DNA of 64,000 nucleotides from Lingula anatina (lineage: Eukaryota > Animalia > Brachiopoda): assembly GCA_051362555.1 (NCBI GenBank), contig CM120645.1, positions 22,816,001 through 22,880,000 on the forward strand, written 5' to 3'. The notes beneath the pieces are model-generated. The model ran no database searches, was not told the DNA's origin, and saw nothing but the letters and a program-made list of their open reading frames with translations. This document shows, piece after piece, positions 5 through 61,889 of this stretch. The position numbers were made by a program, and so were the translations under genes. How positions within the stretch are numbered: the first letter of the stretch is position 1; every line of letters begins with the position of its first letter.

Positions 5-3000
5 CTAGGACAAGACACCTTGACAGAGCAGCATTATCACAGAGAATATCCACATCACCATTACAGTTCTCTCCATCACACTGGTCATGTGACTGGTCAC
101 ATGTCTGGTCATGTGACTGCTCCACCAGCGATCTGGCTGCAATGTGAGGCTTCTCTGTGAAATACGGTGTGTTCACGACCTGAGGTGATAGTGACAGACA
201 TAATGGAATATACATGTAGATGTAGAACATTTCCATGGCATTCTATATACCTTATGAAATATCCTATTGTTAGTTGTATAGGACACCATAAGAATCCTAC
301 AGACGTCCTATAGGATTTTTATGTGGAGATTAACATTTGTTAATCTGATTTAAACGCATCACACAATGCCCGCTGCCTTGTAGGTTGCGTGAGACCCTAC
401 AGCGCCACCTGCGGTAACGCCCCCTGCATGTAGTTGCGCGCGCATGTTAGACCGTTAAATTCAATTTCGCATCTTCAACAGTGCAGCGCCGCACGCTTTC
501 CGCTTATGGCTTTTTAATTCCCACCCTCCCACTCTATATTTAGTGTCTGCTTTGCTTGTGGGTACTTATAGAATCTTTTCATATTTCTTATTTTGTAAGC
601 TTTATTTTACATCTCACGGGGATTTTGTATTTTTGCCTTGAGTACCATAAGACCGCTACGTGGCTCTGAGCTTTAAAGAATTGTTTTTGGTTTTAGTTTA
701 GTGTAGTGTTATTTAGTAATCAACCAATAAACTTTTCTAAGCCTGTGTTGTGTGTTTGTGTTTAACTAGGAAATACATCCTACTATACGACCCTATGGGA
801 TATTTCCATATTGGGTATAAAAAGGGTTGTTGATACAAACATGATCTACAATTTTTTTTATACATAACGATTGGAATAACAGTTGAAAGCTAGAAATGTA
901 CTCCTCACTTTATGAAAGTCATGTTGCTATTTTTAGTTATAAAAAAATCTTCAAATTGTCATTGTCTATGATTTACCTTGGTTATAGTATTACTGAACAC
1001 AATTCCCTCAGAGTCTCCCAGCTCAGTGAACCCATGGTCAGACCAGTGCTTTAGTCTTTTGGCAAAGTCCAGTTCATCCACCACGCCTCCCCACTGGTCA
1101 AGAGAATCCAGCACCAGAGCCTGGAGGAAGAAATAAAAAGTACTCCTTGATTTTCTGGAGAAAGGAAATAACATAAATCACACATCGTATGGTTAAAATC
1201 ACAGCTCCAAATATTACAACAGCCATGTTTGCAATTGTGGTTTTCTAAAATATTTCCTGATCGACTGCTTTTTATATTATGATTTATAATAGTGACTAAA
1301 CAACAGGAGATCCATACAAAAAAATCTTAGCATAACACCACTGATCAATACACGATCCTTTGAGAAATAAAAATTAAAAATTACATTCAGTACTGCACTC
1401 AAATGATTCAGTTTCACTATATTCCCAGTTTTCATGGTTTTCCCCATACTTCCTACTTGTACTCACACATTGATCAAAGTCCACAGTCCAGTCCCCCTGT
1501 CTCCAGCGTACTCTGTGCTGATCCCGCACAATGTCACTGTAGGTCAAGGTCTCTGGTTCGTAGTAAAATTGTGCCTCTTGCACTGGCATGAACTCCGTGG
1601 CCAGCCCTATGGCATCCCCTATTGCAGCCCCATACAGCAACCCTACACAGTATATGATATTAATTATAGTAGTGTACTCATAGGGTGCTTTCCCAGAGAT
1701 TTAGATCGATCTAAAGCTTAAGTTTTAGATCGACCTAACTCCCTGGGGGTTCACGCTAAATTGCAGTCAGCCGAGCGGACACCATAGTTAATTACCCCCT
1801 TACAGCGCTTAGTAGGCGGGACAGACGCTTAAGCCGGCCAAGCTGACAGTAATCTAGTGAGACTCCCCATAGGGATAGATCGATCTAAAAATCTATGGAA
1901 ATGGGGTGTTAGTGTAAAAAAAGTTTTTAAAATCTAGTTGTCTGATGATAATAAGAATGGTCATTTTAGTTCCCATTTCATACAATTATTAAATGCTTTG
2001 TTCTTTGAAAAAAAAATCAACAAAACTTCTTTGCTTTATAAATTTTAATATGTCATTTTATCCAATTATAATATATCTAAATAACTTTATATTTGTTTAA
2101 TTCTGTGAAAAATAAAATCACAAATTAAAAAACCTATCACATAAAGAATTTATGGAAAAAAACAATCTTAAATGTTAGTAGCCAACATTGAAAAATAAAT
2201 AGTAATTTAAGATACCCTAAACTGATGATACAGTGTAGAAGGGGCTAATAGTTTTACAGAAGGGAAAAGGCATTAACAAAGGAAAAAAGATGAGATGTAT
2301 TAGTAAATAACAGCTGTTTACCAGTGATTCTGTCCCTCAAGTCCAGAGGATCCAGAGCACTTGCATCCAGTGGTGGCAGCAATGGTGTTTTGATACGGCT
2401 TGGTGTATTAGTTGTGTGTGTCTGACTCTGTATATACTGAGCTTGTGCTGACTGGGGGTTGGGTACAGAACTGTGCAGCTGATTCCCCCGAACTCTCTTA
2501 AAAACATTCTTATCCAAATTTACTTTGGGTTCTTTTTTAGTGGCATACTTTTTCAAATACTTGACAGTTGCTTCAGAGCCTTCGTCACAGATGCTCTGAG
2601 GAGGGTAAGTCAGTTTGTTATGCCCCGCAAGGACAATTTGCACAGTTTCTGATTGTCCTAAGGATTCAGGCAATGTCCTCAACCTGTTATGACTGACATT
2701 GATTTTAGCCAAAACCTCCATATCACCAATGTCTTCCGGCAGTTCTTTGAGCTTATTATGAGACACGTCAATTTTTTCTAGTTTCACTAATCTTGTGAAG
2801 GATTTCGGAAGGCTGCGGAGGTTGTTGTGGCTAACGAGGACGACACGCAAGTGAAATAACAACCCAAAACTCTCTGGCAGTTCTGAAAGTCTGTTGTGAT
2901 TGAGGTTGATATGCTGAAGATGTGGCAGGCGAAGTGGAAGTTCTGTTGGAAGCTCATATATCTCATTGAAGGAGACGTCCATTCTTTCATACAGGGAGAT

Positions 3001-3784
3001 AGAATCCACGATGGACCAAGGAAGTTCTATTAAACTTGTCTCACATGATTCACCATTCATGTGCTGAAAGAAGAAGATATGGGAATTATGTGATATTTGA
3101 TATATATATATATACAGACAACTAGGAAGGAGGCATCACTTATCAATAATTCCAATAGCATAAAAAAATTGGTGTCCTTTCTTTAAAATTAAAAAATATA
3201 TATATATAAATAATTTTGGCTAAAATATGGATGTAAATACTGTAAAATCCTGCACTTAATTTAGTTTTAAAATGAAACAGATGATATGAATTCATTCCTT
3301 CAAATAAGAACTCCAACAACCAGAAATTATGAGGGCTGATTAAACAATGTGTGAGCAATAAGAAGATTAATTTACTCTAACAAAATAGTCAGCACAATAA
3401 ATTGTAGGTCAGATGAAATCAACGCACACCCCAAAATGAAATATGCATAGAGAAATAAATATTCAATAATCAGAAAATCTGGTGTGACTGATGTCGCTGT
3501 ATATCAAAAGTCCTAATAAGATATTCATACACTGTTCACGAATGATCAATAAATGCATTATGTAAGTATACTTTGAATAATTAAAAGAAACCATACAAGT
3601 AATTAATATAACATTTGCTCCAATAACTGCAAAATAATGGGTTATCAATTTTTCATAGAAATAATGGAATAAAGAGCAAAATTACCCTGCAGTATTGTTT
3701 GTAGTTGACCCTACGGCTGAGGTTCAGCTCCTTTCTTTCGTGCTCCCTCACGGGAGACAGATCGTGCGTTTCCACGTTCCCCAT
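5..3784 (-). CDS. Leucine-rich-repeat + ADP-ribosylglycohydrolase (ARH/DraG)-family fusion protein, 5' part; gene continues beyond the left edge
   Basis: Phase-consistent GT-AG exons: 3784-3686 (MGNVETHDLSP...YCR), 3063-2322 (~6 LRRs LxxLxLxxNxL plus linker), 1642-1467 (GLLYGAAIGDAIGLATEF...GDWTVDFDQC, ARH N-terminal motif), 1120-977 (FAKRLKHWSDHGFTELGD), 179-5 (...CDNAALSRCLVLG). About 445 aa lie in the window. Confidence 0.85.
338..768 (+). mobile_element. Possible solo LTR or other young insertion inside an older CCTATAGG-rich repeat
   Basis: CpG-rich block starting TGTTAA and ending TTAACTA, with AATAAA at ~726 followed by a GT-rich tract. CCTA(T)AGGA-type motifs flank it at 230-320 and 770-815. 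No TSD seen. Confidence 0.3.
1682..1907. mobile_element. Palindromic MITE, family A copy 1
   Basis: Inverted ends TTCCCAGAGATTTAGATCGATCTA / TAGATCGATCTAAAAATCTATGGAA; homologous to 43504-43746. Confidence 0.75.
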
Positions 3785-12404: not shown

Positions 12405-15400
12405 CTATGTCCACTTCTTAAAGGCCTGTGTGCCCTGGCTCTTCCACTCCTGTCTGGTAATACAGGTCTGTTCAAACACCCCCAGGTTGCCCAGGGTGCT
12501 GGCGCCAATGTAGGCAGCATGGTACCTCTGGGGGGAGGTGTGTACCTGGAGAGATAGGAACAGTAAGGGAGGATAATGGCACTGCAGATTTGTTCATATT
12601 TCTGTTACTACAGGTATAAATGATTTACAAACACAGACACACACAAATTAAATAAAAATAAAAAACTTTGGACAGTATAAAGTAGGACATGAGTGACTAC
12701 ACAAGTATCAAAATGATGGATTGTAAAATCTATGCAAGTCTGCAAGACAACAGATCTATGAGCTGTGGTGCATTATTGTGTTAGGTGTTACACCTCAGTC
12801 ATCTTCTTAGGTGTGACATCTTAGTCATTGTGCTAGGTGTGACACCTCAGCCATTGTGTTAGGAGTGACATATTTACCTGCACCACAATGGAAGAAGGCA
12901 CCAGTTTGGACAGTTCAATTTGTAATCTTTCAGCAAAGCCAGGCAGCATTGTGACTCCTCCACTCAAATAGATGTGTCTGGAATAATTCAACAAAAACCT
13001 GTGTCATACATATATTAAAGTAATCACTTAATTACCAGTAAAAAGAAGAAAAAATTTAAATGTCTCTACATAGCTGGTTGATACAAGTAACGGGTATGAC
13101 TAAGATCACTACTGCAAAGAGACAGGATAAGTTTCCAACTCCCTGTTATTTTTTGTCCCACCGTTACCTGTACATCTCTCTCCTGTGGTCCATGGGGCAT
13201 GCCTGCACTGCCTTGTGGACCAGTTTGGGCACCGTGGGGTTGTCCATCCCCCACAGCTCTGTGTTCATTAAACCCTCTGGGCTGATAAACCGGCCTGCCT
13301 CCAGGTCGACCTTCTCACAGGTGCCCTGAGGTACGTCAAAGTTGGTGAGATTCAGCGCCTTTCTGAACTCAGCTGGGTTTTTACTGCACTCCACCAGCTC
13401 CTGGTTGTAATCTGTGGCTACATAGCAGATCTGAAACAGACGAAAGTGAAGCTTTATCAAATTTTAAAAGTCTCTCCAATCACAGCACCATAGAAATTAA
13501 TGACAGTTATTTTCTTAAACATATACAACATATTTTCTAAATCAGACTCTTATTCATTCCCTCAATTTTTCAAAACTGTAATTTAATAAAATTCCATCTT
13601 GCTTATGAGAATGCCTTAGAACTAATGAACAAAGACCCTACTAACAGGAATGGACACACATCACTATACCAAGACATTCCTCATTCCTCAATACTCACCT
13701 GTTCCAGCACGTAACGGACTATCCATTTCTCCACCTCCGTTGAGAAGTGATACCTATTCTCCGTCAGTTTATGGTTGAGGTCGTCTGCCACCCTCTGCCC
13801 GCCATATGCCTGCCGCGTAAGACCAGCATCAACAATGTAACCTGAACAAGTTAATTATTTTGATAATCTAATATCACATAAATATATTTTGACATTCTTT
13901 ATAGTTTGTGTGATTTCTCCAGTAGGGACTTCACTCAGTAAGTGCAGCAATGAGATATTTAAATATCCTAGTATTATATCAATATATTATTTCAATACTT
14001 TTTAATAAGTGCAGCGTTGAGCTCTTTAAACATTTAAGTATTATATCAATATATCATTTATATACTTATATACCTTATGTGTGACACTTCACTCATTACC
14101 TGAGACCAGGTTAACACAAAAGTGTATATTTTAAATTAACTGACCATCAATAATAGGCACAATGTCCATCCTCTCCCCAATGTCCACAATGACCCCTGAG
14201 GAGTTGCTGTAGGAGTAGAGAGCCAGGATGGGCTGGGCCACCATACTGACCCCTATCACACTGTACTGGTCAATGAGGAGGGTCATCAGGTCCTCCTTCA
14301 GCTTGTTACTGTTCTGGGGGATACTCATCATCACCTGATGGAAAATGTGGATATAAAACAATTAACTAAAATTACTTTCCTCCATATCTTTCATCAGTTT
14401 ATCATGACTGTTCTTGTTGAAAATCAAAACAAAATGTTAAGAAATAGATCTTTGTAGAAGAAAAAAAAACAAATCAAAACACCCTTTTTGTGCAAAAAAT
14501 AAATCATGAAAGTGAATAAATGAAAAATATTAACAAGAAAACAGAGGTCTTCAAGAAACAACTGCACATTACTGGTATCTAGGAAATGATCTGAAGTTTC
14601 TTACCCAATGTTCTGCAGGATTTACTTGTAATTCCTGGAACACCTTCTCTAACACTCCAGGCAACAGCTCCAGGTCAAGAGTAAACTGAAAAAAAGAAAG
14701 TTTTAACAACATAAAAGACTAAGTCATGGTTCAATTTAATCTATATATCTGAGAACTTCAGCAAAATTAGTGTCTTCCTAAGGTGCTCCAACAGTAAACA
14801 TGAAAACACGCCCACACTGTAAAAATCTTTGTATGCTTTATAGGATGACTATATGTAAAAAAATAAATAAATAAATGAATAAATAAATAAATAAATAAAT
14901 AAATAAAATGAGGCCTCTTACCTTGTCCACCTTTATGGAAGGCTTTATGGGATGCATCAGGGTAGACCTGTCCCTGACATCAGGTTTGTAGGCATCAAAT
15001 CCATAAAACTTCTGTCCTGTTGTCTTGTTTACAGCCACTACACAGGGGAAAAATACCTGGGGAAGGGAAGCTGGGAGAGAAAATAAATTATCATTATTAA
15101 ATAAAACAACAATGCATATCTTAAAGAAATCAAATATCAGGTGATAAATGGGCAATTATTGCCCCCCAAAAAATGAAAAAATTATAATCTTTATGATAAT
15201 ACAATAAATATTAGATAATTGAAAATAAGAAAACCTATAAAATGCAAGTGCAAAAAACACACAGCTCTTTTTTTTTTTTTTTTGGTGGTTGTTGTGGGGG
15301 GTCTATAGGGCATAAATATAACCCCAAAATATGTGTTGTCTTTTTTTCTTTTTAAGGAAGACCTCATCTTAAATCAATCCCATAGTGACTTACGTTCCTT

Positions 15401-18400
15401 TCCCAGTAGCCCAGCTCTCACTGAACAGCTGCCGAGATCCAGCACTATCACCTTCTACACATGAAAATATTTAGATGAATGTATCAATTAACATCTTTAT
15501 CATGAAGGTTAAGAAAAAAGGTGTACAATAGCTAGCTGCCTGCAGTGTTAACATGTTGAGATAACTGATTAATATCTTTCAACATTAAATTCTATGTAAA
15601 AATCTACCTGTTCTCACTTACTCTCACAAATACATTTCTGCAAAAAATAATTAAGTTCCTTTTAAATGAAAAAAAAAATGAAAAAAAAAAAAAGAAAGAA
15701 AGAAAAAATTATACGTGTTATCAAACAAAATCCCAATATACATGTACATACCCTTGTTTTATGTGGCGTTGGTTTAAGCACTGGGCGCACATATGTAGCC
15801 TCACTATGGTCTGCGGTCTGTGACTCCAGCGCCACCTTCCAGTCATTATATTCTCTGTCAGTGGGACAGCGTACCATGAGATAATGACCTCGCTGTGGAT
15901 GCAAAAATATTTGATCATTAGTTCCATTAGTTATTGACTTATACAAGCCATTAAGGTTATGTTTAAGTAATTTAACAAAACAACATAATAAATAAATAAA
16001 TGAAAATAAATTCACAAATAAAATAAAAAAATAATAATAATAATAATAATAATAATTTATTTTTCTATGGCGCATTCCATTAAAAATCTCAATGCGCCTT
16101 ACAACATTCACTTAAAAGAGCTAAATAACACAATACTAATATAAGAACACATTACAATTTTAAAGGACTAAGAACTAATTTAAAGAACCAATTATTCATA
16201 TTCTAAAATGATAAGAACCTAAAGTGACAACATTTAAAATTAATCATAAAATTACAGTACACCTTATTAAAAACTAAAATTAACTATATGATGAAAATAT
16301 GAAATGAGATCTAACATGCTTTGCAAAATATATTAATTTTTTTTATGGCCAGAACTATACAGGAATGGCAAAGGTTATATCCATCATACTGCTTTGTAGT
16401 TTTATCTTTTCTGAAAGCATAATTAGCTATATATCATCCACTTCTGAAAAAATTAATTTTTATACAGATCCTTACCCCATCATCAATCCCCAATACTTTC
16501 CCTCCAATCTCGTCCACAGTGCCCCCCATTAACTGGACAAACCCACTGGGGCGGTCCTGTCTCTGACTCTGGAAATATCATAGGATACAGGTAGATATAG
16601 GAGAATGTCATTGTGTTACTTAGCTGGGGCAGTTTATTTATCTTTCAACTTACGAATTGAGCACTATTTCTATTCACATCAAAGCTTGTAAAAAAGGCAA
16701 AACAGGGTGGCATCATGGAAGAACTAGTCCCTGGCTAGACAGTATGTGCGTGACTGTGTGCAAATAAAAATATATATAAACTGAAAACAACAGAAGTCAA
16801 ATAGTAGTTTGATGATATTGGCATATTCTCCAAATATTACACATCTAGATATTGCAAGCAAGGTCTAAACAGAGCCAAAAGGTTCACATAAGACAGAGTG
16901 ACCTTACACTGGTGATGGTACTACAATATAACACCCATGAAATATCCAGTGACTTAACCCTGGTGACAGTACTGCAATATAATACACTGAAATTAAGTGG
17001 TAATGAAACTTTGTCTATGTAAAAACCTAGCATTTTCTTCTAATCAAAAGCCATTTTTCCAAACTTCTTAAAAGGTTTTTTATGTGTGCTAAGCTATCAA
17101 ATGTTTCACAAAAAAAAAAAAAAAAAAAAAAATCAAGCTGGCACAGCAAATCTTTTACTATAACAGACATAAGGCATATATAGCTGCTATTATCACACTT
17201 AAATTTCCAAGAATGGCTTTAAATTTACAACTTCACCTTTCCTTTAATAACTTTGTTTGATTGCCTTAAATACATTTTAAGTTCCATAAATACTGCACTG
17301 CTAACTATCACAGTATTCAGTGTTACCCTGGTCCAAAATTAAGCCATAAGAAATAGTATACTGGTACCACCCGTAGAAACAAAACATTTATATACGAAGT
17401 CATGATTCTGACAAGATATATAATATTTTGTACAGGACAACAACAATATTGCATATGAATAAACATACTGTTCCCCACACACTGTGAAATGTTAGTAGGT
17501 ATTGGGCCTATCCCCTTTTTAAAAAAATTGTAACCACACTAACAAAAGGTCACCTCTTGAGTGTTAAGGTTTTTGGGTCTTTACTCACAATACCAAGACA
17601 TGTTACTGGGGAGTGGGTATTGAAAGAATAAGTATTTGAACCCTTAAGTGGTCTGGGACCAACCATTTTAGTAATTACAAAGGAATGGGTGGCTCCAGGC
17701 ACAAGCCTGTTAAGTAAGAAAATGTGAATTAAAAAATAGTATTGGAAATCCGGTCCGCCTTTAAGTGGTAAATAGCGGGTGGAATTTTCTGAAAAAGTGG
17801 ACCATTTTAAAGTGAATTTACATGTTTTCATATAACTTAGATTAAATTTGGATTCAGAGTGGAACTTCTCCAAGGCAAAAAGGACTGTCAGTGTTTAAAA
17901 TTAATAGTAAGGAAACAGACTACCCTTCTCTGTGACTCAATCCAATGGGACGTGCTCTGCAAAAAGGTTTCAAAAGGGTATTACATTTAACCAGGTCAAT
18001 TTTCCATCTTGATATAGACATGTATTTTGGTTAGTAATAAACCTTGATCAGTTCACCAACTGTATACAACAGATACACTGTGAATACGAGACCTAGTACG
18101 CCAAGACAACTTGAAGCTTGGGCAATAAAACACAAGGTACCAAGGAGTGTTAGTGTGTTATACTGAACCAGGGACCCCCAAATAGCTCCAAATTCCTGCA
18201 TGAAATCAATGGCTGCAATGGCTGAACACATAGGCAACACAACATGTAGCCATGGCAACATAACATGTAGCCATGGCAACACAACATGTAGTCATGGCAA
18301 CACATGAAGCCTTGACAACATTACCTACCTCCGTGTCCTAATTTGTAAAGAATGAAGAAAGTGTACTTTGAGTTATTGTTAAGTTTATGCTGTGAAGTTA

Positions 18401-45994: not shown

Positions 45995-46539
45995 TTTCCA
46001 GGCCTACCCAACTAGGATCCTGAATTAACCGGTATATCGGGCCACGCTACCCGTTTTCAAGGTGTGTGTCAGATCGCATTTCGGAGTATCAGCCAGAACA
46101 CCGACAGGATGAGCCCTGGCATGCTCGGCTGTCACCTTGATTGGATAGTAAATCATTGTCGTAATTCGCTATATGATTTTAAAACCGGGTGCATAAATTT
46201 GAAAGCCACCTAGATGAACCTTAGACTGCCACATTAATCTAATACAATGCAAAAAAAAACGCCCTATCAAAAGTGGTCAAAACATTCAAACCGAATGTCG
46301 TTAAGTCCCCATATATCCCCATTGAGACAATTAAATAGAGTACTCTAAAGTAAGAGTACAGTTTATGGTTGTTCAGCCGAGCGTGGATGAGCCTGCAGTC
46401 ATGCTACAAAATTTGTTCTGGGGTATGATACTCCGAAATGCGATCTGACACATACCTTGAAAACGGGTAGCGTGGTCCGATATACCGGTTAATTCAGGAT
46501 CCTTAGGTGCCGAGTCTGGTAGTTGGGTAGGCCTGGAAA
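45995..46539. mobile_element. Foldback/MITE with ~110-140 bp near-perfect inverted arms
   Basis: TTTCCAGGCCTACCCAACTA.GGATCCTGAATTAACCGGTATATCGG...CAGATCGCATTTCGGAGTATCA is mirrored at 46416-46539. Confidence 0.88.
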
Positions 46540-47020
46540 CGCATTAAGATATATCTACGCACGATAGGCTCCTCGCGGATAAATGACCATATGATTTTAA
46601 GTGCCTGGTGGGCTTTCAGTGACAAATTTCAGACCTCAACTCTTAGGGCAGGTAAATCATCAATGGGGGGGGGGTCTAATATAAATGAAACGGCATGTAC
46701 CTCTGAATAATTGAAAAATAATCTATATTTAACTTTTTATAGTTTTATATAATTCAGTATTTGGAGAGAAAATATAAAAACTATCAGTGAATTGGCAGAG
46801 ATTTATTAATGACTTATGTAAGGATATAATCTTCATCTCAACTTTTATAATTCATCATTTTTCATTCGATCAGCTGGATACTAGTATTTCAGTGCTTTGG
46901 TCTTTACGCTAAACTTGATATAATCTGGAATACAAATGTAGTCTCTGGCAATTCAGTTATTCTCGAGCGGATCATGCCCACAGTTCAATTTCTTGGTTGC
47001 GCTCAACGACCGTGAAATCT

Positions 47021-47551
47021 CTAACAAGTGATAGACACCGTAAAGGTCCCTTCTCTGGTGTCGTACCCGTACACACCTATTGCATACGTTCCAATGGCTA
47101 GCTCTCCTTCGGGAATCTGAATCAAAGAGGTGTAACCAGAACACCTGTTGTCGTAGTCGTTATAGTACAGACTGTACTCTTGGTAGATGTTGCATGTCTG
47201 ACTCCCACCGGATTCAGTATTAGACAACGCATCACAGGCAAAAAGAGCCAGCTTTGTGTCGTAGTCGGCGGTGTTACATGTGGATATAATGACATCGTTG
47301 CACCCGGTGTAGCTGATGTAGTATCGCAACTGTGCCAAATTGACGGCGACAAATTGATGGCTGTCGGTGAAGGTGTAAGCTGTACCATCACACGTGACTT
47401 GTTGAACATCCGCTGAAAGTGACAAATATACATATTTTAAGTTTCACATTGCCCACCAAAATGAACATTTAAGTACTTATAATAATTTATTCAGCCATTA
47501 TATAATATATATAGGAAAATGGATTATGTAAGAGCTATAATAATAATAATA

Positions 47552-47602
<51 letters not shown>

Positions 47603-49862
47603 ATATACCAAAAATAATAATAATAAAGTTTAAAACGTGGATATAAGACGATTTTTAATAATTTTAATTTTATTATGTTAAAACATAATATACTAAATAG
47701 ACAGTAAGTAAACATTTGGAAAAGCACAACGGTAAGCTACGTAGCTATGAGACCACAAACAACTCGATATATCGTCGTTTTTTCCTATTTATTTTCTTTT
47801 TCTACACACTGGTAAGTGCTTTACAAAATATCATACTTACGACACTGTGTTGTAAGTTCAGCTGAAAATTGATAACAAGAGATATGTAAGAAAAGGCTCA
47901 TTAATATTTTACAAACAAATAATCTATATATTGCAAAACTTCTGCCAGCACATATGAGTAAAGAACTTAAGTCTGTTAACATCAAAACACACACACACTC
48001 ACAAACACACACACACACACCAATTCCCAATCACATTAACTTGTTTTATCTATTCGCTAAACTTTTTGAACGAGTCTCCATGTATTATGTGGACCGTAAG
48101 CTAATATCCACTACCGCAATTTTTTCAATTATGATAAAAACATAATTTAGTTAGCTTGTAATAAATAGTAATAGATAGGAAGCAAACTGCATGTCAAATT
48201 AATCTAGTTTTTACGTTATACTTACGACATGCCAGTGGCTCTAGGAGAAAAAATAAAAGAAAGCAATATTATACATTACGGAATATCAGCCGAATAATAA
48301 ATGTGGGGGTATCATCATTAGCGCTGCAGTAAAACATATATGGGATTCCATGATAACTATTGTTTGGTGATAAAATAAGTGCAATCAAGGGGTAAAAAAC
48401 ATAGCAGAGGAAATATTTTTGTTGAATAATACCAAAAGAAAAAATGGGCATTTATTAGAAAAAGAATAAAAACTGAATAGCAAACTTCTTTGTTACAATA
48501 TTCAGTTTTTAATTTATGTTACAATACGCGTTGATTTTTACACACACACACCTACAATAATAATAAAAAAAGTGTTGCGATTCACCTATAAATGCACATT
48601 GTATTGATATTTGCAAATGCGCTTAATGCAATAGACATTGTTATGAAAGTCCTCACCTTCTGGAACACAAATACAGGACCAGGGCTTGGGGCAAGGTGCA
48701 ATACCTTGGCTATTTGGACTCGGGGTATTCTTGCAGCGAGTCACGTTGTTTTTTTCAATCCTGCAGCACCTTGTATTGTTCCCGCATAAAGGTGGCATAT
48801 CGGTCGTTGCTATAAAATAAAAAGGGAGAATTAATAGACAAATTAAAATTCGGTAATTCATGGATGGCTAAAGCATGAGCAGTTGACGGTTTACCTTCCA
48901 AGAAATGACAGAATATTTTGTCTTTACGAGGATTTAGGAACTCCAAATTTTCATAAATTCTCGTCACATTACTTCAGATGGTTCTAAACGATTCTCTAAT
49001 CCTCCATATATCTCGAAAAGTATGTAGGTTTCAACCCCTCCTCTTTTCCTAATGGTACTTAATATCGAATCCAAAGAGGAAATTCAAATGTTTGTTGGGT
49101 ACAAAATGGAGTTAGCCAACTACAGAGCATGTCTACCGTGACAAGCAAATCTGGATCTCCCCGCTCTTAGAGGCATTTATATGGAAATGGTGGCTTCCAA
49201 AACAGCAAAGATTATTAAAGATACTGCTCACCCTGCGTATGAAATTTTCAATTGTAGACTTTTATCTTTTAGACGTAGACTAACGAAGCAAACTGCTTTG
49301 AAGTTTTTATCCAACCGCTACATCTTTCTTTAATAGTATGACATAATTTTTACCGATTACTCTAAACTTTTTTCTTTTCATTAATTTAATCATGCATAAA
49401 TCCAAGATGGTGAAAAAGTTTCCGTTTTATGTGTATTTTTTTACAATAAATTTAGGCTAACAATGGTTGAATAACTTGATCATTATTATTGTTATTATAA
49501 TTGCAAACTGGTAGGCCGTGAATTTAGTACATGTCGGATCACATGGAAAGAATTATTAATTTAAGGCCGAACTGTAAAATGTTTAAAATCATAATGCCGT
49601 CGAAATAGGGACTAATAAAATGACGTTTGCTTTTCTAAATAACATCGACTAGACCAAGTGACTAAATATAATTTGCTTTGCATTGTGTACATCTTCCAAT
49701 ATTTTCAAAGGTTTGACTTCTCCTTTGCCAGTCATGACAACTTGAAACCATATCATCCATCTTTGAAATAATAATAAAAAAGTTTTTGTACTTACGGGCA
49801 CCATCGACAGCACATAGTGACACCGCCATCAAAACAAGACAAAGGGCCATTGGACTGGTCAT
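47021..49862 (-). CDS. Secreted protein, ~208 aa: signal peptide + Cys-rich module + PPC (bacterial pre-peptidase C-terminal)-like beta domain
   Basis: Exons 49862-49796 (MTSPMALCLVLMAVSLCAVDGA), 48809-48657 (C-x5-CC-x9-C-x13-C-x5-CxC), microexon 48240-48226, and 47412-47021 (ISTCNTADYDTKLALF...NDYDNRC..TSLI...GTYAIGVYGY...GTFTVSITC*). All introns are phase 1; total 627 nt. AATAAA at ~46802 on the minus strand. Confidence 0.8.
47537..47602. repeat. (AAT)n/(ATT)n microsatellite
   Basis: Direct reading; source of the poly-Ile ORF. Confidence 0.9.
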
Positions 49863-49945
49863 CTTCACCTTCAAATGATAGTTCTGAAGCTGCTGAATTG
49901 ATTTCTGGCAAAATGTTGATCTACTGGTTGTCAGAGACGACTGTG

Positions 49946-59857: not shown

Positions 59858-61889
59858 TTAAACAGTTGTTACAGAAAGCAATGGACTATAAGATTTACCA
59901 TCTGTAACTTTACTTCCATGGACTAAAATCTCTTGCACAGTTGTAAAATCATCCAGCATCCTTCGCCCTTTGTGGCGCATCATTTTTCTGTGGCTCAGTT
60001 CAACTATGTTCATTTGTTTGCATTCTTCGCCTTCTTTCAGAGTCTCCATTCGCTGTTTGATCATGCTTTCTTTCTTATGCTTGTGCTCGCGTGCCCGCGC
60101 AAGATGGCGTCTCCTTTCCTCTTTGTTCCAGTAACGTCCAACTTTCATTTCGCTCATGGCATCATCATCTGTGGTCATACCACATCGCTCCTCTGTAATT
60201 TTCTTTGCACGTTCCTTCAAGCGCATGCTGCGCACAGGTCTGCGCGTGATGTATCGTGAACCATCAGCACGCTTTTTGACTACCCATTCCATCTGATTGT
60301 CACTCGTTACTGGAGTCTCAGCACGCTTACTTCCTGTAGCACTCTGGGAAGAGCTTGGTGCATTCTGGGTATTTTTCTCCCCACTATTTTGGCTGTTTTG
60401 GGAGATTGACTGGTTCGAGGATAACAAACGATTGCGCTCTTCTACTTTCTGCTCAAAAAGGCGCTGTTGCACAGCTATGGTGTGCTCCAGATGGGCATGG
60501 TTTGTGTACATAATATCTGAATATTTGGCATAGATATCAGTCATGGACTCAGAATCATTCATTGAAGGTCCATCTCGATTCTCAATGGCCGTCTGCTGAC
60601 CGTCACTAATACTGCTACTTGTTGCACTCTTGGTTTGAGCAAGGCTTTTGCCTTTATTACTTTTGTCTGAAGCCGGCTTAGGCATGTGTTGAGGCGTGGT
60701 TTGAGTAGTTTTCTCAGAGTCGCTCTGAGGTTGTGATACAGTTTGTGGGGCGTGAGAGAGACTAAGCATGGAACCCCGGAACCCCTCTTCCTTCATGAGC
60801 TCCAGAGTGAGAGGTGTGCTACGGCAACTTTCTCCCGTGTTATAGGCACTTGAATTGGAAGTGTCTTTCTCACAATCTTCAACAATCTTTTTCTCTTTTT
60901 CAACGTTTTTAATGGTGTCTTTATTACAGACTTTGACTGGTGTTGGAGAAGAGGAAATGTCTTGTCTGATCCAAATGGCTGGATCTGACTGTTGTTGTTC
61001 TGAAGTGTTTTGGTTGTATCGCAAAGACTCCATGCGCGTGCCCATGCGAGGTACAAGCCGTGGACTACGACACATTTCTGAGGTTTGCAGCGTTCTTATC
61101 TGGTTCTGAACTTTGTGTTGGTGTTGAAGATGGGCAGCGACTATCTGCTGGCACTCCAGCTGAATTTCCTCCATTTCTTGGTTTAGGATGGCAAGTTCAC
61201 GCTCAATACTGCTCTGTGAGTCTTTGCGCGAATTTGAGGTCAAAGGAGCACCTGAGGACGCCATGTTTGGATGAGAATTTTGTGTGCAACGATTCTCCAA
61301 CACTTCTCTGAATTTTTCACACTCTTCAGCTGGGATTTCATTGGCTGGGAAATCATTGTCGTGAGTGTCATTGGAGGTGAAGCTGTCATTGCTGTACTGG
61401 AGCTCGCCATTGCCCAGCTGTCCACCTCGGAACTTGGTCTTTGTTGCTGGGGACATGCATTCACTGTCAAATATTTCCTGTAAGAAGAGGAAATTGTGCT
61501 TTAATATTTGCAAAACCATGTTCAATGCCAACTGATAATGCACTTCAAGATTCATGGAATATCTATTAAATTGCATACTGTTTCAAATTGATATAAATCA
61601 ATTCTGTCTCCATATTTCGCTTTTAAAACACATATCAATTAAACTAAACTAAAATTAATCATACACAAAACACCCAAAATTTGTAATTTCTAAACAAATG
61701 GACAATGAATACCATTCAAATGAATCAATTCACAATTAATGAGCTGGAAAAACACACCTGTTCTGAGCTCTCATCATTTCTTGTGCTCTCGTCAGTGCGG
61801 CCAACTCCACTGTCTTTTTCGTGTTTCTGTGAATTCTCCGTGGTGGCAGTGTCTGTGGTCCCGCCCTCTTCGTCATTGTCATGGTGACG
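59858..61889 (-). CDS. PDZRN3: PDZ domain-containing RING finger protein 3/4 (LNX3/4) orthologue, last two coding exons; 5' part lies outside the window
   Basis: Exon 61889-61758 encodes GGTTDTATT...[22 protein letters not shown]. Exon 61477-59858 encodes [57 protein letters not shown] and the C-terminal PDZ ligand LLSVTTV. Confidence 0.93.

What the first reader, a model, noticed from the sequence alone, without database searches (positions are those of the whole stretch)
47021..47412. Bacterial-style PPC-like domain on a single phase-1 exon of an animal secreted protein
Seen: the pattern ISTC..ADYDTKLALF..C...ND.D..C...S.I......GTY.I.V.GY....GTFTVSITC is encoded intron-free and fused by phase-1 introns to a signal exon and a Cys-rich exon. 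Known: this pattern resembles PPC-type (PF04151-like) beta-sandwich modules of secreted bacterial proteins, which bind substrates such as collagen or Ca2+. Inference: a horizontally acquired or patchily retained domain domesticated by exon shuffling. The spliced context argues against contamination. Recognition is by eye only.
Basis: partly seen in the sequence, partly recalled or inferred. Interest (0 to 1): 0.75.

Follow-up and report, generated by a model that had tools for sequence, protein, structure and literature searches.

The report
Bacterial-type binding domain in brachiopod protein
A spliced, transcribed lamp-shell (Lingula) gene joins a predicted secretion signal and a cysteine-rich exon to a domain whose closest relatives found are repeats in proteins secreted by bacteria, so it is likely a borrowed binding module that the animal multiplied into a small gene family, though neither the donor nor the ligand is established.

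Summary
The minus-strand exon 47412-47021 encodes a 129-aa domain at the end of a five-exon, 215-aa gene that matches Lingula anatina XP_013396398 at 210 of 215 residues. RNA reads span two of its four introns exactly. The domain folds confidently (pLDDT 93) and its best structural matches are PPC-type sandwiches (collagenase PPC Z 10.1, PliG 10.0, ColG collagen-binding domain 9.7). It scores 40 bits against a profile of microbial repeats, mostly from type IX secretion cargo (shuffles at most 5), but reaches no Pfam family. Six Lingula gene models share it. No other animal was named among the hits I saw; a dinoflagellate protein also carries it. Corrections: it is the terminal exon, so phase 1 on one side only, and two micro-exons precede it. 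Horizontal transfer is likely but unproven: the Lingula clade is long-branched without a supported sister, a Lingula-plus-dinoflagellate clade is not rejected, and other brachiopods were not visibly sampled. Most likely a secreted, calcium-stabilised binder of extracellular polymer; no family accession is in the shell-proteome supplement I searched.

The parts
49796..49862 (-). Coding exon 1: start codon and predicted signal peptide (22 codons + 1 nt); reads begin upstream near 49918-49941
   Evidence: (hydropathy peak 2.86 at residue 7; no signal predictor run)
48657..48809 (-). Exon 2: symmetric phase 1-1 Cys-rich module (7 Cys, two N-glycosylation sequons); paralogues have a weakly EGF-like version with a last loop that this copy lacks
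   Evidence: joint 48809/49796 in RNA
48226..48240 (-). Micro-exon 3 (15 nt, one Cys)
   Evidence: present in RefSeq P0001 and P0002; a near-identical 14-nt piece lies between read joints (table 5c)
47841..47861 (-). Micro-exon 4 (21 nt, one Cys)
   Evidence: joint 47412/47841 in 3 reads of X1 and 8 reads of X7
47021..47412 (-). Terminal coding exon 5: 129-aa acidic PPC-like beta-sandwich domain (pI about 4.05, 7 Cys, 14 Tyr) and stop codon
46802..47020 (-). Likely 3' UTR, with an AATAAA starting at 46807
   Evidence: read depth in the bins from about 46814 to 47020

Best explanation
This spliced Lingula gene encodes a small, acidic, cysteine-rich protein, predicted to be secreted, whose last exon is one PPC-like beta-sandwich that was likely acquired horizontally from a microbe and likely works as a calcium-stabilised binder of an extracellular polymer (glycan or collagen-type). 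Shown: gene structure, splicing, homology to microbial repeats, six Lingula gene models, absence of any catalytic domain. Predicted: fold, secretion, disulfides. Inferred: a single repeat from a secreted bacterial protein (Bacteroidota or Planctomycetota type) landed intron-free behind an animal signal exon and an EGF-like exon, lost the conserved N-terminal third of the bacterial repeat, gained a 15-20 residue disulfide-closed insert, and was duplicated; the conserved D51-T52, N84-D85-(D86) and S95 residues would form the metal site, and the varying insert and tyrosines would set the ligand. With no enzyme attached, it would act as a coating, cross-linking or microbe-binding protein outside the cell.
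For: Five-exon model equals RefSeq XP_013396398 at 210 of 215 residues. RNA joints at 47412/47841 and 48809/49796 with CT..AC ends, stranded runs reading only the expected strand. Exhaustive phmmer over 1.84 billion representatives gave 34 hits: 4 Lingula paralogues, 8 repeat-driven hits with no domain of 12 bits under a Lingula profile, and 22 real relatives, 10 of which carry a T9SS sorting tail. Four GTDB loci hit: 2 Planctomycetota, 2 Bacteroidota. Profile from 503 non-Lingula, non-dinoflagellate repeats scores all seven Lingula rows at 40-62 bits. T44, C45, D51, T52, C59, N84, D85, C90, S95, Y109, V113 and G121 are kept in all six Lingula rows compared and in 71-98% of those repeats. Fold: Z 10.1, rmsd 2.9, 99 aligned to B. 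anthracis collagenase PPC; Z 9.7 to ColG CBD. PPC domains of collagenases bind collagen (PMC6168687, passages). Lingula rows form one clade, 100/98.
Against: No supported bacterial sister: the branch separating Lingula from the Bacteroidota-rich group is 92/77, unstarred, on 118 columns with an unsettled bootstrap. A Lingula-plus-dinoflagellate clade is not rejected (p-AU 0.75; the constrained tree was 12.5 log units better than the quick free tree). Best non-Lingula E-value is 4.6e-9, which gives an alien index of only about 12-19 by my arithmetic, under the usual cut-off of 45 (recalled). Only 120 of 480 hits of the long-protein profile search were shown, ranked in favour of many-repeat proteins, so single-domain animal hits could be hidden. 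The window copy has Tyr at position 86 where 93% of the repeats and 5 of 5 other Lingula rows have Asp, which may weaken the proposed metal site. PliG, an enzyme inhibitor, ties as a fold match (Z 10.0). Identity to solved PPC domains is only 11-18%. No ligand data exist.
Confidence: 0.45

Rival explanations
1. The domain came from a microbial eukaryote (for example a dinoflagellate or another alga in the diet) that itself holds the repeat, or Lingula and such algae share one eukaryotic lineage of it.
For: A EukProt dinoflagellate protein (P0018, symbB, recalled as Breviolum) and 5 unnamed near-copies carry tandem copies before a membrane anchor. The AU test does not reject their union with Lingula.
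Against: The careful tree keeps the two clades apart, without strong support. A 23-domain dinoflagellate profile scores the Lingula rows at 22-32 bits against 40-62 for the broader microbial profile, though the narrow profile is handicapped. Both are long branches and may attract.
Confidence: 0.17
2. The domain is an old eukaryotic inheritance, lost or diverged beyond detection in most animals and under-sampled in brachiopods and phoronids.
For: PPC-like folds occur in eukaryotes: calpain domain III, SID1 and GOLD domains are among the structural hits; Pfam has the IRG7 family PF23623 that hits one bacterial relative; Entamoeba CPBF1 has weak PF04151 similarity (PMC3465781, one passage). GC3 of 0.56 is only modestly above neighbouring ORFs at 0.33-0.48.
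Against: No non-Lingula animal name among 34 + 120 + 40 listed hits (most rows are unnamed). PF23623 does not hit the domain at E up to 10. The precise STC/DT/NDD motif is shared with bacteria. The domain is intron-free in a gene whose other parts are split into very small exons.
Confidence: 0.2
3. Same origin, different job: a stand-alone secreted inhibitor or decoy that binds an enzyme (as PliG blocks g-type lysozyme) rather than a matrix polymer.
For: PliG ties for best fold match (Z 10.0, rmsd 2.6, 101 aligned; rank 1 in Foldseek) and the Lingula proteins have no catalytic partner domain. Paralogues diverge fast (36-73% between distinct loci).
Against: 17% identity; sequence kin are repeats in multi-domain cargo proteins, not PliG. 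No inhibitor motif was tested.
Confidence: 0.12
4. A diverged ordinary animal domain such as CUB that only resembles PPC.
For: A CUB spermadhesin appears at Foldseek rank 45 (TM 0.35).
Against: No Pfam CUB hit; significant sequence homology to microbial repeats.
Confidence: 0.04
5. Contamination or mis-assembly of bacterial DNA.
For: None found.
Against: Four GT-AG introns, spliced RNA reads, six gene models on five RefSeq contig lengths, eukaryotic neighbours such as an actin-family exon.
Confidence: 0.01

Closest known systems
Cys-stabilised PPC-like tandem repeats of T9SS cargo proteins of Bacteroidota and of Planctomycetota secreted proteins (partly covered by Pfam PF23759 GBD_T9SS_assoc)
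   Same: Core motif STC..A.YDT, C, NDD..C....S, Y...V.G....G.F; 30-38% identity; profile score 40-62 bits.
   Different: Single copy, not tandem; no T9SS tail or peptidase; N-terminal third (conserved T, A, C and W of the repeat) not kept; 15-20 residue insert with an extra Cys; animal signal exon and Cys-rich exon in front; PF23759 itself gives no hit.
PF04151 PPC domains: Bacillus anthracis collagenase PPC (5sv5), ColG and ColH collagen-binding domains (1nqd, 5iku, 3jqw), Tk-SP jelly roll (3afg)
   Same: Predicted fold, Z 9.1-10.1, rmsd 2.6-2.9 over 93-101 residues; C-terminal position in a secreted protein.
   Different: 11-18% identity; below the Pfam cut-off; no peptidase attached; disulfide-rich.
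PliG periplasmic lysozyme inhibitor (4dzg)
   Same: Stand-alone exported domain of the same fold, Z 10.0.
   Different: 17% identity; no sequence link found.
msp130 (PMC11878542, abstract read) and centipede venom families (PMC7864903, search listing only)
   Same: Precedent for bacteria-derived extracellular proteins kept and duplicated in invertebrates.
   Different: Those are whole genes with phylogenetic support; here one non-catalytic domain is fused to animal exons and is seen in one genus only.

Membership tests
Pfam PF04151 PPC | Score above the gathering cut-off (25.9 bits) | tested here: not met
   No family for the window domain at E up to 10; paralogue P0001 reaches 12.7 bits, E 0.24.
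Pfam PF04151 PPC | PPC-type jelly-roll beta-sandwich fold | tested here: met
   Predicted model pLDDT 93.4; Z 10.1, rmsd 2.9, 99 aligned to 5sv5.
Pfam PF04151 PPC | Accessory to a secreted peptidase | tested here: not met
   No catalytic domain in the 215-aa protein or in 5 paralogues.
Pfam PF04151 PPC (collagen-binding subtype) | Binds triple-helical collagen, often calcium-dependent | not testable with these tools
   Needs a binding assay; property described in PMC6168687 (passages).
Pfam PF23759 GBD_T9SS_assoc | Score above the gathering cut-off (27 bits) | tested here: not met
   0 families for the window domain; 7 of 25 alignment members, all non-Lingula, match at E up to 1.
T9SS-cargo PPC-like repeat (sequence family gathered here) | Significant profile homology and conserved STC/DT/NDD/S/Y/G core | tested here: met
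   40.5 bits, E 2.8e-5 at library scale; core kept except D86Y. The profile's members were found with an alignment that held Lingula rows, so it is not fully independent.
T9SS-cargo PPC-like repeat (sequence family gathered here) | Tandem repeats with a T9SS sorting tail | tested here: not met
   One copy, ends at the stop codon.
CUB domain | Pfam CUB hit | tested here: not met
   No hit.
CUB domain | CUB as nearest fold | tested here: inconclusive
   Spermadhesin at Foldseek rank 45, TM 0.35, well below PPC rows.
Horizontally transferred gene | Integrated and expressed in the host genome | tested here: met
   Introns, splice joints, paralogues.
Horizontally transferred gene | Best non-self hits outside animals | tested here: met
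   Named real hits are bacterial or one dinoflagellate; most rows are unnamed.
Horizontally transferred gene | Alien index above about 45 (threshold recalled) | tested here: not met
   About 12-19 from E 4.6e-9 against no other animal hit at E 0.001 (my arithmetic); the domain is short and diverged.
Horizontally transferred gene | Nested with support inside a donor clade | tested here: inconclusive
Horizontally transferred gene | Absent from sister lineages (phoronids, other brachiopods) | not testable with these tools
   No searchable named proteomes of these groups; no genome held for the window.
EGF-like domain (exon 2) | Pfam EGF hit above cut-off or EGF fold | tested here: inconclusive
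   Window exon: no Pfam hit, model pLDDT 68 with no fold match above Z 2.2. Paralogues: sub-threshold cEGF and JAG-type EGF hits.
Lingula shell matrix proteins | Detected in the shell proteome | tested here: not met
   0 of 6 family accessions in the supplement of PMC13425148, positive control found 10 times. In the 2015 list no novel protein matches length and pI (PMC4595640 supplement part 9 of 24; different gene ids, so indirect).

The most novel reading that the evidence does not exclude
A single surface-binding repeat from a marine Bacteroidota secreted protein was captured by a lingulid ancestor, wired into the animal phase-1 exon system, and expanded into an undescribed family of secreted lectin-like proteins that bind microbes or matrix, with an independent capture of the same repeat in dinoflagellates: a bacterial adhesion module repeatedly domesticated by marine eukaryotes.
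Probability: 0.35. Interest if true: 0.68.

Novelty: new variant of a known kind. Interest (0 to 1): 0.48.

Why it matters
Documented bacteria-to-animal transfers are mostly whole enzymes or toxins. Here a lone, non-catalytic domain appears fused to native animal exons, which would be a compact case of new extracellular architecture built from a foreign part. The 129-aa stand-alone domain is also an easy handle on a very common but uncharacterised bacterial repeat whose ligand is unknown. It is limited by being seen in one genus, with no function and no resolved donor.

Tried and rejected
Pfam and NCBIfam scans of the domain gave no family. PDB sequence search gave nothing for the single domain and only weak profile hits, LasA E 0.039 and the vEP PPC domain E 0.37. 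No CUB row stood among the 50 VIA rows shown, which excludes nothing. No indexed RNA holder was listed; raw-read runs were laid instead, and run X4 gave 0 reads and X5 1 read. Eight of the 34 phmmer hits (P0007, P0011-P0014, P0019, P0023, P0036) were dropped as repeat-summed noise. Folding exon 2 alone was inconclusive. A shell-matrix role found no support in two proteome supplements; the first accession search used a form without a control and was repeated. Literature searches for the six LOC ids gave 0 papers; searches on Lingula with horizontal transfer, PPC in eukaryotes and exon shuffling with transfer listed no paper on this family, judged from titles and abstract starts. Earlier scan findings: none by sequence, words or nearby place; eight unrelated notes on the genome. 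Exon structure of the paralogues could not be read because no genome is held.

Full report
Observation. The flagged interval is a minus-strand open frame. Reading splice signals gave a five-exon gene: 49862-49796 (67 nt), 48809-48657 (153 nt), 48240-48226 (15 nt), 47861-47841 (21 nt) and 47412-47021 (392 nt with stop). All four introns are GT-AG and phase 1, and the product is 215 aa. It differs from Lingula anatina XP_013396398 (LOC106163385, P0002) at 5 of 215 residues, so the window is Lingula and RefSeq independently models both micro-exons. The domain exon is terminal, so only its 5' intron is phase 1.

Expression. Eight of nine listed raw-read RNA runs were laid. Seven had reads (X4 none, X5 one). 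Depth lies mainly on the exons and UTRs, plus a short stretch in intron 1 that looks like a repeat. Exact joints: 47412/47841 (3 reads in X1, 8 in X7) and 48809/49796 (4 reads in X7). In the stranded runs X1-X3 first mates lie only on the plus strand, which fits a minus-strand RNA. Most reads are 90-95% alike and so come from a close paralogue or another population; reads at 99% or more number 8 (X1), 8 (X3), 13 (X7), 4 (X8) and 36 (X9). Tissue is unknown.

Family. The word-indexed search found only P0001 (Lingula, 94%; possibly an allele). The exhaustive phmmer search gave 34 hits at E up to 0.001. The top four are Lingula LOC112042606, LOC106172231, LOC106172232 and LOC106167485, with 43-70% identity to the window domain. 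Architectures vary in the Cys-rich module: two copies in P0003, one in P0001, P0002, P0004 and P0006, none in P0005. That is the pattern expected of a symmetric 1-1 exon being duplicated or dropped, though I could not read the paralogues' DNA. In P0003, P0004 and P0006 the module ends in a loop with sub-threshold EGF hits; the window copy lacks that loop.

What the domain is. No Pfam or NCBIfam family hits it. The ESM Atlas feature search ranked a bacterial cluster with PF04151 on 39% of members first (score 0.96), and 10 of the 10 best hits with a family shared that family or clan. After dropping 8 noise hits, 22 real relatives remained; 10 of the 22 have a T9SS sorting tail and the named ones are Bacteroidota. 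A 25-row alignment found 480 longer proteins, of which the best 120 were shown, and 40 short ones. The only animal name in these lists was Lingula. One EukProt dinoflagellate entry (P0018) and five near-copies carry tandem repeats before a membrane anchor. A profile from 503 repeats, leaving out Lingula, the dinoflagellate set and the 20 seed proteins, scored the window domain at 40.5 bits and the other six Lingula rows at 41-62 bits; shuffles reached at most 5.3. Unnamed members are assumed bacterial. The conserved core is kept, while the N-terminal third of the repeat is not, and the window copy has Tyr86 for a nearly invariant Asp. The model is confident (pLDDT 93.4, pTM 0.87). Among 48,161 chains the best matches are collagenase PPC 5sv5 (Z 10.1, rmsd 2.9, 99 aligned), PliG (10.0, 2.6, 101) and ColG CBD (9.7, 2.8, 101), which are tied. 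Foldseek agrees and puts a CUB protein at rank 45.

Origin. A FastTree of all 590 extracted domains made Lingula one long-branched clade (0.98) and the dinoflagellate copies another. An IQ-TREE on 51 chosen rows (5 Lingula, 4 dinoflagellate, the 12 best-scoring and 26 random others, 4 named GTDB loci) and 118 columns gave Lingula 100/98, placed between a Planctomycetota-rich set and a Bacteroidota-rich set that holds the dinoflagellate rows; the separating branch is 92/77 and the bootstrap had not settled. The AU test, on the quick tree, did not reject Lingula plus dinoflagellate (p 0.75). The root is unknown, so no donor can be named. The alien index is about 12-19, below the usual threshold (recalled). 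Transfer rests on distribution, the shared motif and the intron-free exon, not on the tree. I put horizontal origin of any kind at about 0.7, bacterial donor at about 0.55.

Function. There is no catalytic domain. The protein has a hydrophobic N-terminus, 18 Cys and two sequons, and the domain is acidic and Tyr-rich. PPC domains of bacterial collagenases bind collagen, with or without calcium (PMC6168687, passages). The conserved Asp, Asn, Thr and Ser cluster suggests a metal site, but I had no access to coordinates and did not test it. None of six family accessions is in the supplement of the 2026 shell proteome paper (PMC13425148; abstract, section 8 and supplement search), and no novel protein in the 2015 list fits by length and pI (PMC4595640; passages and supplement part 9 of 24). 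A soft-tissue or mucus binding role is therefore at least as likely as a shell role; this is inference.

Novelty. No paper in the library names the six loci, and the other searches listed nothing on this family (titles and abstract starts only). Transfer of bacterial extracellular proteins into invertebrates has precedent (PMC11878542, abstract), and weak PPC likeness is reported in Entamoeba (PMC3465781, one passage). Subscription papers on Lingula immunity are outside the library. Verdict: a real, undescribed, lineage-restricted gene family with a microbial-type PPC-like domain; a new variant of a known kind, with origin probable and function open.

Noticed in passing
window 46014-46503: MITE-like element just downstream of the gene: 78-nt inverted arms, 97% complementary, 334 nt apart.
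   Followed up: partly
window 47861-49795: Seven reads in run X7 join exon 1 to the micro-exons and skip the Cys-rich exon: alternative splicing, or a close paralogue built like P0005.
   Followed up: no
window 47153-47155 (domain residue 86): Tyr replaces an Asp conserved in 93% of microbial repeats and in the five other Lingula rows compared; this copy may have an altered metal site.
   Followed up: partly
protein P0018 and near-copies P0051, P0053, P0060, P0078, P0094: Dinoflagellate-labelled protein with a helical N-terminal part, several tandem copies of the same repeat and a C-terminal membrane anchor; possibly a separate eukaryotic capture.
   Followed up: partly
window 49301-49338: Short stretch in intron 1 covered by reads with loose ends on both sides; probably a repeat transcribed elsewhere.
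   Followed up: no
window 1374-3135, minus strand: An LRR exon lies upstream of an exon with an ADP-ribosylglycohydrolase hit; they may be one LRR-ARH gene.
   Followed up: no
window 13164-16111, minus strand: Actin-family exon downstream of exons that look by eye like a PH-domain region; possibly one unusual actin-related gene.
   Followed up: no
window 59858-61582, minus strand: 574-aa exon with no Pfam hit that resembles, from memory, the C-terminus of PDZRN3/PDZD4.
   Followed up: no
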